DNA from: Escherichia coli
GTDB taxonomy: Bacteria > Pseudomonadota > Gammaproteobacteria > Enterobacterales > Enterobacteriaceae
Reading direction: 5' to 3' (one strand)
Length of the DNA stretch: 64,000 nucleotides
Assembly: GCF_003018255.1 (NCBI RefSeq)
Contig: NZ_CP027440.1
Notes under the pieces: model-generated
Database searches by the model: none
The model's input: the letters and a program-made list of their open reading frames with translations, nothing else
What the model was told of the DNA's origin: nothing
Shown: positions 9,198-10,434 of the stretch, one piece after another
How the letters are laid out: each line of letters starts with the position of its first letter
Numbering within the stretch: position 1 is the first letter of the stretch
Translations under genes and position numbers: made by a program

Positions 9198-9416
9198 TTA
9201 TTTACCGACCTGGTGACCAATAACACCACCGACAGCTGCGCCACCTAATGTACCCAACGTACTGCCATCGGTTAGTACTGCACCGCCTAATGCACCTGCA
9301 CCCGCGCCAATTGCGGTGTTACGGTCTCGTTTAGACCAGTTAGAACAGGCACTCAGAGACATTGCCAGGGTAATTGCCAGAACAGCCGCGGTCATTTTTT
9401 TGCTCGTTACAAACAT
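9198..9416 (-). CDS. osmB: osmotically inducible lipoprotein OsmB
   Basis: 72 aa; signal peptide with lipobox (…LSAC…) and Gly-rich repeats. Confidence 0.93.
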   Translation of the reverse strand: MFVTSKKMTAAVLAITLAMSLSACSNWSKRDRNTAIGAGAGALGGAVLTDGSTLGTLGGAAVGGVIGHQVGK

Positions 9417-9684
9417 AATACTCTCTCCTGAATTTATGATTCACGGAAGTAAGCTCTCTATAACTATAATAGCTAAGAATAAGCCTGGTGAAATTATTCC
9501 GTGAAATCCGCTCGCGCGCAGGGTTATATCACGCAGGTGATAATGACTTCCTGTTATATCGCTGATAATAATTTTATATCTTGAGAGTGTTAATAACAGG
9601 TAAATAGTCTTAATTATCAACCAGGAATCATCTTAGAGCGGATGATTTGCCAAACTGCAAATCATCCGTAGAGAAGGGAAATGG

Positions 9685-10434
9685 TTAAATGTCAACGACG
9701 TGAACGGTGAGTTTACTGTGCTCAAGATGCATCAGATCGCTGGCGCGTATTTTCGAATCGGTAATCACGCGATTGAATCGCTCAACGGGACCGATGGAGT
9801 ATGAATGTACAGCACCAAATTTCGAGCTGTCAGTCAGGACTATTGCTTCGCACTCTTTTTCCAGCACGGCATTGACCACATCGGTACGCATCATATCGCG
9901 ACCGGTGAATCCAGTTTCAGGTTGCCAGCCATCAATACCAATAAATGCTTTGCTGAAATGTACCTGTTGGATGCACTGGCGTGTCAACGGGCCAACCATA
10001 CTTTCGCTTTTTTTCTGGTACACGCCACCGAGCAAAATAACTTCACAAGGCGCGTCTTTCAGCAAATGCGCGATGTAGCTGCTGACCGTGATGATAGTGA
10101 CATTTTTCTTCTGCTCGCCCAGAGTCCGGGCGAGCAGGGCATTGCTGCTGCCATTTTCGATAAAGATGGTTTCGCCCGGTTGAACCAGTGACGCGGCAAA
10201 CTCGGCGAGTTCACGCTTCAGCGTATAGTTGCTCATCATACGAGTTTCGACGTCATCACTATCAAGCGATACTGCAAAGCCATGTGCACGGCGGAGGTAA
10301 CTCAGTTTTTCGAGGGTGTTGAGATCCTGGCGAATGGTAACTTCAGAAACTCCAGTGGCTTTTGCCAGATCGGTTACGCTAACCTGACCCTGGTCAATGA
10401 CCATCTGTAGAATAGTTTGTTGTCGGGAATTCAT
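9685..10434 (-). CDS. yciT: DeoR-family transcriptional regulator YciT
   Basis: 249 aa; N-terminal DeoR HTH (…[31 protein letters not shown]…) and C-terminal sugar-phosphate-binding domain. Confidence 0.9.

What the first reader, a model, noticed from the sequence alone, without database searches (positions are those of the whole stretch)
9417..9684. Perfect 12-bp stem-loop between yciT and the osmB promoter
CGGATGATTTGC-caaact-GCAAATCATCCG (9,629–9,658) lies 27 bp after the yciT stop, with no T-tract on either strand, inside the region that must carry the osmB promoter. It may be a protein-binding palindrome or a Rho-independent-like insulator between the two genes.
Basis: seen in the sequence. 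Interest (0 to 1): 0.22.

Follow-up and report, generated by a model that had tools for sequence, protein, structure and literature searches.

The report
Hairpin ending the yciT messenger RNA
The palindrome is real (10 bases from where it was reported) and is an ordinary RNA hairpin that marks and protects the 3' end of the E. coli yciT transcript, just upstream of the osmB control region.

Summary
The window is the E. coli pyrF-yciH-osmB-yciT-pdeR region. A perfect 12-bp inverted repeat with a 6-nt loop exists, but at 9639-9668, not 9629-9658. It lies 16 nt, not 27, after the yciT stop. yciT and osmB are both on the minus strand. Shuffled windows give no such palindrome.

Published Term-seq data (Adams 2021) place a dominant yciT 3' end at window 9635, four nt after the stem (...CAUCCG-CUCU). 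The same study reports a Rho termination region peaking at 9453 on that strand.

In 78 of 79 Enterobacteriaceae species a stable hairpin follows the yciT stop. Its sequence differs between genera, and only 8 have a T-tract. The next element, the osmB RcsB box (9635-9622), is conserved in sequence.

No ChIP-exo site for YciT or 33 other factors is assigned to this locus. There is no Rfam match, and the palindrome is single-copy.

Best reading: a U-tract-less 3'-terminal stem-loop of the kind Dar and Sorek (2018) described. Rho would terminate downstream, and exonucleases would trim back to the hairpin. Weak intrinsic termination is the main rival.

This is an ordinary new member of a known kind, and of low interest.

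The parts
9639..9668 (-). Stem-loop in the yciT 3' UTR. RNA 5' arm 9668-9657 (CGGAUGAUUUGC), loop 9656-9651 (AGUUUG), 3' arm 9650-9639 (GCAAAUCAUCCG).
   Evidence: Perfect 12-bp inverted repeat. Folds at -18.1 kcal/mol alone. z = -4.56 in context. No such palindrome in shuffled windows.
9635..9635 (-). Dominant steady-state 3' end of yciT RNA (...CAUCCG-CUCU-3'), 4 nt after the stem.
   Evidence: Adams et al. 2021, Supplementary file 1: MG1655 position 1343547 (-), class 'primary', gene yciT, heights 107065 and 37489. Conversion: MG1655 coordinate = window + 1333912.
9669..9684 (-). 16-nt spacer between the yciT stop codon and the stem (CCAUUUCCCUUCUCUA). It is pyrimidine-rich and has no G.
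   Evidence: Read directly from the sequence. The sequence varies but stays G-poor in other Escherichia, Citrobacter and Salmonella.
9685..10434 (-). yciT coding sequence (DeoR-family regulator). The stop codon TAA is at 9687-9685.
   Evidence: ORF list. RefSeq annotation of MG1655.
9622..9635 (-). RcsB box of osmB (TAAGATGATTCCTG), starting 3 nt after the stem.
   Evidence: It is at the position of the Salmonella box TAAGACTTTTCTGA, which was validated by EMSA (PMC7913699). Key positions are conserved in 78 species. It is the only relaxed-pattern match in the intergenic region.
9596..9614 (-). Highly conserved block ATTAAGACTATTTACCTGT in the osmB upstream-promoter region. Its function was not established here.
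   Evidence: At least 90% identity across 78 species.
9571..9576 (-). Conserved TAAAAT, the likely -10 of the upstream osmB promoter. The inferred transcription start is about 9562-9563.
   Evidence: Conservation. In Salmonella the box lies at -73 to -59 from the mapped start. Transfer to E. coli is by alignment, so this is an inference.
9453..9453 (-). Peak position of a bicyclomycin-sensitive (Rho) termination region, 182 nt downstream of the 3' end.
   Evidence: Adams et al. 2021, Supplementary file 2: position 1343365 (-), class 'orphan'. Reads without BCM 101 upstream and 25 downstream; with BCM 259 and 233. Rho score 3.63, p = 9.7e-9. The score is computed from 800-nt windows.
9198..9416 (-). 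osmB coding sequence, the next gene on the same strand.
   Evidence: ORF list and annotation. yciT followed by osmB on one strand in 79 of 79 species.

Best explanation
The palindrome acts as RNA on the minus strand, which is the yciT sense strand. It is the terminal stem-loop of the yciT messenger RNA.

**Proposed sequence of events.**
1. RNA polymerase transcribes past the yciT stop codon and through the hairpin. Little is released there, because no U-tract follows the stem.
2. Rho loads on the untranslated, G-poor RNA of the yciT-osmB spacer. It terminates diffusely further downstream, before or within the osmB leader.
3. 3'-to-5' exonucleases trim the RNA back to the base of the 12-bp stem and stall there. 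This leaves the sharp 3' end at 9635 and protects yciT mRNA from decay.

**Consequence.** The hairpin together with Rho sets the boundary between yciT and the osmB control region, which begins 3 nt later with the RcsB box.

**What is shown and what is inferred.**
- Shown: the hairpin, the 3' end, the Rho-sensitive region, and conservation of a hairpin at this position.
- Inferred: that Rho acts on yciT read-through transcripts, exonuclease trimming, and any insulating effect on osmB.
For: **Transcript mapping.**
- A dominant 'primary' yciT 3' end lies 4 nt after the stem. It appears in two of the three Term-seq condition tabs and only on the minus strand.
- A Rho termination region is reported on the same strand, peaking 182 nt downstream, with Rho score 3.63 and p = 9.7e-9.

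**Fit to a described class.**
- Dar and Sorek (2018) found that Rho-dependent E. coli transcripts end immediately after stable stem-loops.
- Those stem-loops lack U-rich tails and have mild C-over-G enrichment downstream. The authors provide evidence that they protect against PNPase and RNase II.
- Here the tail is CUCUAAGA. The next 100 nt have a C/G ratio of 1.1-1.8 and only 5-7 G per 50 nt.

**Comparative evidence.**
- 78 of 79 species have a hairpin of -8 kcal/mol or better, starting a median 9 nt after the yciT stop. Sequences are unrelated between genera, and only 8 have at least 5 T in the next 8 nt.
- In 69 of 76 species the interval from the stop codon to the RcsB box folds at z < -2 against shuffles.
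- Within Escherichia, Citrobacter and Salmonella the loop and flanks vary while the stem is kept. Compensatory changes occur (A-U to G-C, C-G to U-A), and the core-stem (columns 9-19) exceptions are 12 G-U cells and 6 mismatches.
- Sense-strand stability stays between -12 and -20 kcal/mol in all 22 sequences. The antisense version drops to -8 in several.

**E. coli population.** 5413 of 5426 complete genomes keep the region. The sampled variants change only the loop or the end pairs of the stem.
Against: **Limits of the Rho evidence.**
- The Rho score comes from 800-nt windows. It cannot say which transcripts are terminated; they could be osmB leader transcripts or read-through from further upstream.
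- The downstream region is AT-rich rather than clearly C-rich.

**Limits of the 3'-end evidence.**
- The 3' end is only 4 nt from the stem. From general knowledge, this is shorter than the usual stalling distance of RNase II or PNPase.
- It was not among the curated ends in the third condition, which by position in the file is LB at OD 2.0 (an inference).

**Limits of the strand evidence.**
- The strand asymmetry of wobble pairs rests on few independent events, roughly 6 against 3.
- It is not significant as a stability difference (Wilcoxon p = 0.58).
- One E. coli lineage (E69) and the O157 lineage carry changes that favour the antisense strand.

**Limits of the insulation idea.** osmB rises 3.6-fold in a yciT deletion strain. 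So the two genes are not fully independent, although the cause is unknown.
Confidence: 0.58

Rival explanations
1. Weak, non-canonical intrinsic terminator. The strong 12-bp hairpin itself makes RNA polymerase release the yciT transcript a few nt downstream despite the poor U-tract (CUCUAAGAU). A little trimming then gives the 9635 end. Rho acts only on the fraction that reads through.
For: - There is a sharp, tall Term-seq peak right after the stem.
- The hairpin is stable, at -18.1 kcal/mol.
- Eight of the orthologous hairpins, in Leclercia, Cedecea and others, do carry T-tracts. The ancestral element may therefore have been a standard terminator.
- Tails in Citrobacter and Salmonella are pyrimidine-rich (UCUCUCU).
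Against: - Only 2 U occur in the first 8 nt, and the element fails the terminator scan.
- 48 of 78 orthologues have at most 3 T in the 8 nt after the stem.
- There is no A-tract upstream of the stem.
- A Rho-sensitive region lies downstream.
- The end is 4 nt from the stem, not the usual 7-9 nt (the latter figure is general knowledge).
Confidence: 0.27
2. A DNA operator. The 12-6-12 palindrome binds a dimeric transcription factor, possibly YciT itself, that modulates the adjacent osmB promoter.
For: - The palindrome is perfect and lies 3 nt from the RcsB box.
- The 10-bp core GATGATTTGC/GCAAATCATC is invariant or nearly so across Escherichia, Citrobacter and Salmonella.
- YciT binds palindromic motifs, and osmB is up 3.6-fold in a yciT deletion.
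Against: - No ChIP-exo site of YciT or 33 other factors has osmB or yciT as its nearest gene.
- Enterobacter, Kosakonia, Kluyvera, Leclercia and others have unrelated GC-rich hairpins in the same place. The neighbouring RcsB box and promoter blocks, by contrast, are conserved in sequence.
- Stem length and loop length vary.
- Internal changes in Citrobacter break the DNA symmetry but keep G-U pairs.
Confidence: 0.06
3. A processing product or stable fragment. The 9635 end belongs mainly to an abundant hairpin-protected decay intermediate or a small RNA from the yciT 3' end, which may have a function of its own.
For: The Term-seq height (107065) is about half that of the fabI end (223252) in the same table. 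Yet yciT is a modestly expressed regulator gene, with baseMean about 358.
Against: - No 5' end or small RNA has been reported here.
- There is no U-tail of the kind Hfq normally binds.
- There is no Rfam match.
- The CU-rich spacer shows no special complementarity to the osmB ribosome-binding region: -6.5 kcal/mol against a shuffle mean of -8.6.
Confidence: 0.06
4. A chance palindrome with no function.
For: None beyond the general possibility.
Against: - No palindrome of this kind occurs in 30 shuffles of the window.
- It is kept in more than 99% of E. coli genomes.
- A hairpin at this position is conserved across a bacterial family.
- A mapped RNA 3' end sits at its base.
Confidence: 0.02

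Closest known systems
[quoted passage not shown]
   Same: - A stable stem-loop with no U-rich tail.
- A precise steady-state 3' end immediately after the stem.
- G-poor sequence downstream.
- Bicyclomycin-sensitive termination reported downstream on the same strand.
   Different: - Whether yciT was in their Rho-dependent set could not be checked, because their tables are not held.
- The Rho evidence used here comes from another study and has low resolution.
- The stem here is unusually long and perfect for its class, and only 50% G+C.
Canonical intrinsic (Rho-independent) terminators
   Same: - A hairpin shortly after a stop codon.
- A transcript 3' end close to the stem.
- Orthologues in a few genera have a true T-tract.
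   Different: - No U-tract: 2 U in the first 8 nt.
- No upstream A-tract.
- An AU-rich stem.
- The 3' end is 4 nt, not 7-9 nt, from the stem.
Rut sites split by a hairpin, as at lambda tR1 (rutA-boxB-rutB). This comparison is from general knowledge.
   Same: Pyrimidine-rich, G-free segments flank a hairpin ahead of a Rho-dependent termination zone (CCAUUUCCCUUCUCUA before the stem, CUCU after it).
   Different: The flanking segments are short. No Rho-binding data exist for this site. This is a resemblance only.
Repetitive extragenic palindromes (REP/BIME)
   Same: An intergenic palindrome that can stabilise upstream mRNA against exonucleases.
   Different: It is single-copy per genome and shows no REP consensus.

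Membership tests
3'-terminal protective stem-loop of a Rho-dependent transcript | A stable stem-loop immediately upstream of the steady-state RNA 3' end | tested here: met
   The hairpin folds at -18.1 kcal/mol at 9639-9668. The Term-seq end is at 9635, 4 nt after the stem.
3'-terminal protective stem-loop of a Rho-dependent transcript | No uridine-rich tract after the stem | tested here: met
   The tail is CUCUAAGAUG. It is not called by the terminator scan. 48 of 78 orthologues have at most 3 T in the 8 nt after the stem.
3'-terminal protective stem-loop of a Rho-dependent transcript | Rho-dependent read-through beyond the 3' end when Rho is inhibited | tested here: inconclusive
   The published Rho region peaks at 9453 on the same strand, with score 3.63 and p = 9.7e-9. 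It is computed from 800-nt windows, so the terminated transcript is not identified.
3'-terminal protective stem-loop of a Rho-dependent transcript | The 3' end is generated or protected through exonuclease (PNPase, RNase II) stalling | not testable with these tools
   This needs 3'-end mapping in exonuclease mutants.
Canonical intrinsic terminator | A G+C-rich stem-loop | tested here: inconclusive
   The stem is 12 bp and stable but only 50% G+C, with an AU-rich middle.
Canonical intrinsic terminator | A U-tract directly after the stem (about 5 or more U in 8 nt) | tested here: not met
   At most 3 T in any 8-nt window starting 0-2 nt after the stem.
Canonical intrinsic terminator | Factor-independent release of RNA polymerase in vitro | not testable with these tools
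   This requires in vitro transcription.
Transcription-factor operator palindrome | Sequence, not merely structure, conserved at orthologous sites | tested here: not met
   The core is conserved only in Escherichia, Citrobacter and Salmonella. Elsewhere it is replaced by unrelated hairpins, while the adjacent RcsB box stays conserved.
Transcription-factor operator palindrome | In vivo occupancy by a factor | tested here: not met
   No ChIP-exo site of YciT or 33 other tested factors is assigned to osmB or yciT. Factors outside that set were not tested.
RcsB box | A match to TN(G/A)GAN4TC(T/C)NA | tested here: not met
   The hairpin arms do not match even a relaxed pattern. The only match in the intergenic region is 9635-9622, next to the hairpin.
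REP/BIME or other repeated palindromic element | Many copies per genome sharing a consensus | tested here: not met
   The median is one place per E. coli genome. The two exact copies of the arm in the window are the palindrome's own two arms; other matches differ by one base and do not exceed chance.
Known structured RNA family (Rfam 15) | A covariance-model match | tested here: not met
   The only hit is a chance-level one elsewhere in the region, with E = 3.3.

The most novel reading that the evidence does not exclude
The hairpin is a tunable boundary rather than a passive end. The share of yciT transcription that escapes Rho after the hairpin reads across the RcsB box and the osmB promoters. 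yciT is preferentially transcribed by sigma-S RNA polymerase in vitro, so this read-through would couple osmB output, or interference with RcsB activation, to yciT promoter activity. The 3.6-fold rise of osmB in a yciT deletion strain could then be a cis effect. So could any phenotype of the natural 34-bp hairpin deletion allele in strain AF26.
Probability: 0.1. Interest if true: 0.4.

Novelty: new member of a known kind. Interest (0 to 1): 0.15.

Why it matters
The matter is mostly one of annotation.
- It fixes the 3' boundary of the yciT transcription unit.
- It shows that the osmB regulatory region starts directly after that boundary, with the RcsB box 3 nt from the stem.
- It adds a well-documented example of a U-tract-less terminal stem-loop whose position, but not sequence, is conserved across Enterobacteriaceae.

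There is also a practical use. Constructs that tag or delete yciT, or that fuse the osmB promoter to a reporter, should take care to keep or remove this hairpin deliberately. Read-through from yciT could otherwise confound osmB measurements.

Tried and rejected
**Ideas tested and rejected.**
- Repeated element (REP-like): rejected, because the palindrome is single-copy.
- Known RNA family: no Rfam match.
- The hairpin as a second RcsB box: the arms share GATGATT with the box but fail the pattern.
- The look-alike TAAGAATAAGCCTGG at 9475-9489 (+ strand) as a real second box: rejected, because it is not conserved.
- Roadblock by RcsB creating the 3' end: rejected. The end lies on the first base of the box, whereas a roadblocked polymerase would stop well upstream of it (this is an inference).
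- An anti-Shine-Dalgarno small RNA from the CU-rich spacer acting on the osmB ribosome-binding region: its duplex energy is worse than that of shuffles.
- Strand asymmetry as proof of RNA function: it is only suggestive. By cells it is 12 G-U against 6 mismatches in sense orientation in the core stem (columns 9-19). By independent events it is roughly 6 against 3. The stability difference is not significant.

**Searches that gave nothing.**
- The osmB promoter paper of Boulanger 2005 is not held.
- The supplementary tables of Dar and Sorek 2018, Choe 2022, Herzel 2022 and Maciag 2011 are not held.
- The TERMITe and SMRT-Cappable-seq supplements do not mention yciT.

Full report
**Locus.** The window is Escherichia coli chromosome and is 99-100% identical to thousands of complete genomes. 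The genes around the finding are pyrF and yciH on the + strand. On the minus strand lie osmB (9198-9416), yciT (9685-10434), yciZ and pdeR. MG1655 coordinates equal window coordinates plus 1333912.

**The observation.**
- A perfect inverted repeat CGGATGATTTGC / GCAAATCATCCG with a 6-nt spacer is present. It sits at 9639-9650 and 9657-9668, ten bases to the right of the reported 9629-9658.
- It lies 16 nt, not 27, downstream of the yciT stop codon. Neither strand has a T-tract after it, and a consensus terminator scan does not call it.
- It is far beyond chance. Only three perfect hairpin palindromes with stems of 12 bp or more occur in the 64 kb, and none in 30 shuffles.
- The minus-strand RNA folds with z = -4.56. 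The hairpin alone is worth -18.1 kcal/mol.
- It is single-copy and matches no Rfam family.

**Transcript evidence from the literature.**
- Adams et al. 2021 (PMC7815308) mapped RNA 3' ends in MG1655 by Term-seq. Their curated table lists a 'primary' yciT 3' end at 1343547 on the minus strand, with heights 107065 and 37489.
- The printed flanking sequence is identical to the window. The position converts to window 9635, so the RNA ends ...GCAAAUCAUCCG-CUCU, four nt past the stem.
- By position in the file, the two entries are the LB OD 0.4 and M63 tabs (an inference). No plus-strand end is listed nearby.
- The same paper's table of bicyclomycin-sensitive regions has an 'orphan' entry at 1343365 on the minus strand, which is window 9453.
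  - Read counts without drug are 101 upstream and 25 downstream.
  - Read counts with drug are 259 upstream and 233 downstream.
  - The Rho score is 3.63 and p = 9.7e-9.
- That entry lies 182 nt downstream of the 3' end, between the hairpin and the osmB start codon. The score uses 800-nt windows, so it shows Rho-dependent termination of minus-strand transcription in this neighbourhood. It does not identify the transcript.

**Comparative evidence.**
- A scan of one genome per species with the YciT protein returned 80 loci. yciT is followed by osmB on the same strand in all 79 loci that extend far enough, mostly 252-304 bp apart.
- In 78 of 79 species a single hairpin of -8 kcal/mol or better (range -9 to -22) begins a median 9 nt after the yciT stop.
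- In 69 of 76 species the stop-to-RcsB-box interval folds at z < -2 relative to shuffles, with a median z of -3.95.
- The hairpin sequences are unrelated between genera.
  - Escherichia, Citrobacter and Salmonella have GATGATTTGC...GCAAATCATC.
  - Enterobacter has GCGCCCG...CGGGCGC.
  - Kosakonia has GCCCGC...GCGGGC.
- Only 8 of the 78 hairpins are followed by at least 5 T in 8 nt, and 48 have 3 or fewer.
- In an alignment of the whole spacer, the hairpin is the least conserved part in sequence. What follows it is strongly conserved.
  - The motif TCT[G/A]AGAnnnnTTCc at 9638-9622.
  - The block ATTAAGACTATTTACCTGT at 9614-9596.
  - The hexamer TAAAAT at 9576-9571.
  - A long block at 9563-9523.
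- The first of these elements is at the position of the Salmonella osmB RcsB box TAAGACTTTTCTGA, which was validated by gel shift (PMC7913699). The osmB control region therefore starts 3 nt after the stem. The hairpin is next to the promoter region, not inside it.

**Variation within the clade that shares the E. coli hairpin (22 sequences, alignment A1).**
- Loops and flanks vary freely. The ten core pairs are kept, and pair 9-36 switches between A-U and G-C. Pair 19-26 shows one C-G to U-A change.
- Non-Watson-Crick cells in the core stem (columns 9-19) are 12 G-U and 6 mismatches when read as yciT-sense RNA. The same positions read as antisense RNA would be 16 mismatches and 2 wobbles.
- Sense-strand stability stays between -12.2 and -20.1 kcal/mol in all 22. 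Antisense stability falls to about -8 in several Citrobacter.
- This argument is weak, however. It comes down to roughly six events against three. The paired stability test is not significant (p = 0.58). One E. coli lineage (E69) and the O157 lineage carry end-of-stem changes that favour the other strand.
- Among 5426 complete E. coli genomes, 5413 keep the region. Sampled variants change the loop, the outermost pair (C to U, giving U-G) or the loop-closing pair.

**The protein-binding alternative.**
- Gao et al. 2021 (PMC8464067) mapped 49 YciT sites and sites of 33 other factors by ChIP-exo. None has osmB or yciT as its nearest gene.
- The palindrome does not match the RcsB pattern.
- Replacement by unrelated hairpins in other genera argues against a conserved operator, because the flanking DNA-binding sites stay fixed. 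A lineage-specific site for an untested factor cannot be excluded.

**Mechanism.**
- The anatomy matches the class described by Dar and Sorek 2018 (PMC6061677). In that class, Rho-dependent E. coli transcripts have precise steady-state ends immediately after stable stem-loops.
- Those stem-loops lack U-rich tails and have mild C-over-G enrichment downstream. The authors provide evidence that they protect against PNPase and RNase II.
- Downstream of the yciT hairpin, the first 100 nt are G-poor, with a C/G ratio of 1.1-1.8. The 16-nt spacer before the stem has no G.
- I therefore favour this sequence: read-through of the hairpin, Rho termination in the untranslated spacer, then trimming back to the stem.
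- The main rival is weak factor-independent termination at the hairpin. It is supported by the height of the Term-seq peak and by true T-tracts in a few genera.
- I put about 0.85 on 'RNA element that forms the yciT 3' end'. Within that, I favour the Rho-plus-protection route over intrinsic release by roughly two to one.

**Assessment.** This is an ordinary feature of a known kind. The 3' end is already listed in a published table. The hairpin's family-wide conservation of position, and its placement against the RcsB box, are modest additions.

Noticed in passing
L083 3030-3050 (E. coli AF26); corresponds to window 9661-9628: This strain has a natural 34-bp deletion between two GATGATT direct repeats, one in the hairpin's 5' arm and one in the RcsB box. 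It removes the loop and the 3' arm, and turns the box from TAAGATGATTCCTG into ACGGATGATTCCTG. It is a ready-made hairpin-less allele and was found in 1 of 5426 genomes.
   Followed up: partly
L084 2985-3010 (E. coli FMU073332); junction at about window 9644: An IS1 element is joined inside the hairpin's 3' arm, and osmB plus the rest of the spacer are missing. This looks like an IS1-mediated deletion.
   Followed up: partly
window 9523-9563 (minus strand): A 41-nt block, AGCGATATAACAGGAAGTCATTATCACCTGCGTGATATAAC, is about 90-100% conserved across 78 species and contains GATATAAC twice. It lies just downstream of the inferred upstream osmB start site. Its function is unknown.
   Followed up: no
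window 9496-9505 and 9440-9448 (minus strand): A conserved inverted repeat, UUUCACGGAA / UUCCGUGAA, lies in the osmB leader and brackets the downstream promoter region. The published Rho-score peak (9453) lies between its arms. The leader as a whole does not fold better than shuffles, with z = -1.39.
   Followed up: partly
osmB, window 9198-9416: In the published RNA-seq, osmB is up with log2 fold change 1.83 (adjusted p = 0.011) in a yciT deletion strain. There is no YciT ChIP-exo site at the locus. A cis effect of the deletion on read-through is possible.
   Followed up: no
window 9475-9489 (+ strand): TAAGAATAAGCCTGG resembles an RcsB box and is the inverted partner of the real box region (17 nt, 76% complementary). 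It is not conserved in other species, so the resemblance is probably chance.
   Followed up: yes
window 61398-61432: A perfect 16-bp palindrome, AATATGCCTGATGGTG-CAA-CACCATCAGGCATATT, lies between two convergent ORFs (59824-61392 on + and 61436-61942 on -). It looks like a shared terminator hairpin.
   Followed up: no
window 30531-30561: A perfect 12-bp palindrome, GTTGAACAGATG-ACGTCGC-CATCTGTTCAAC, lies about 105 nt upstream of the start of a 547-aa minus-strand ORF (28783-30426). It may be an operator.
   Followed up: no
L003 (JAEWQO010000093.1): A 3.6-kb contig labelled 'Actinomycetes bacterium' MAG encodes a YciT 100% identical to E. coli and an identical hairpin. This is almost certainly E. 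coli contamination of the bin.
   Followed up: no
L079 2257-2290 (Entomohabitans teleogrylli); L026 (Intestinirhabdus alba): These are exceptions to the conserved layout. In L079 the yciT stop codon abuts the RcsB-like box with no hairpin. L026 has a 588-bp spacer with inserted GC-rich sequence.
   Followed up: no
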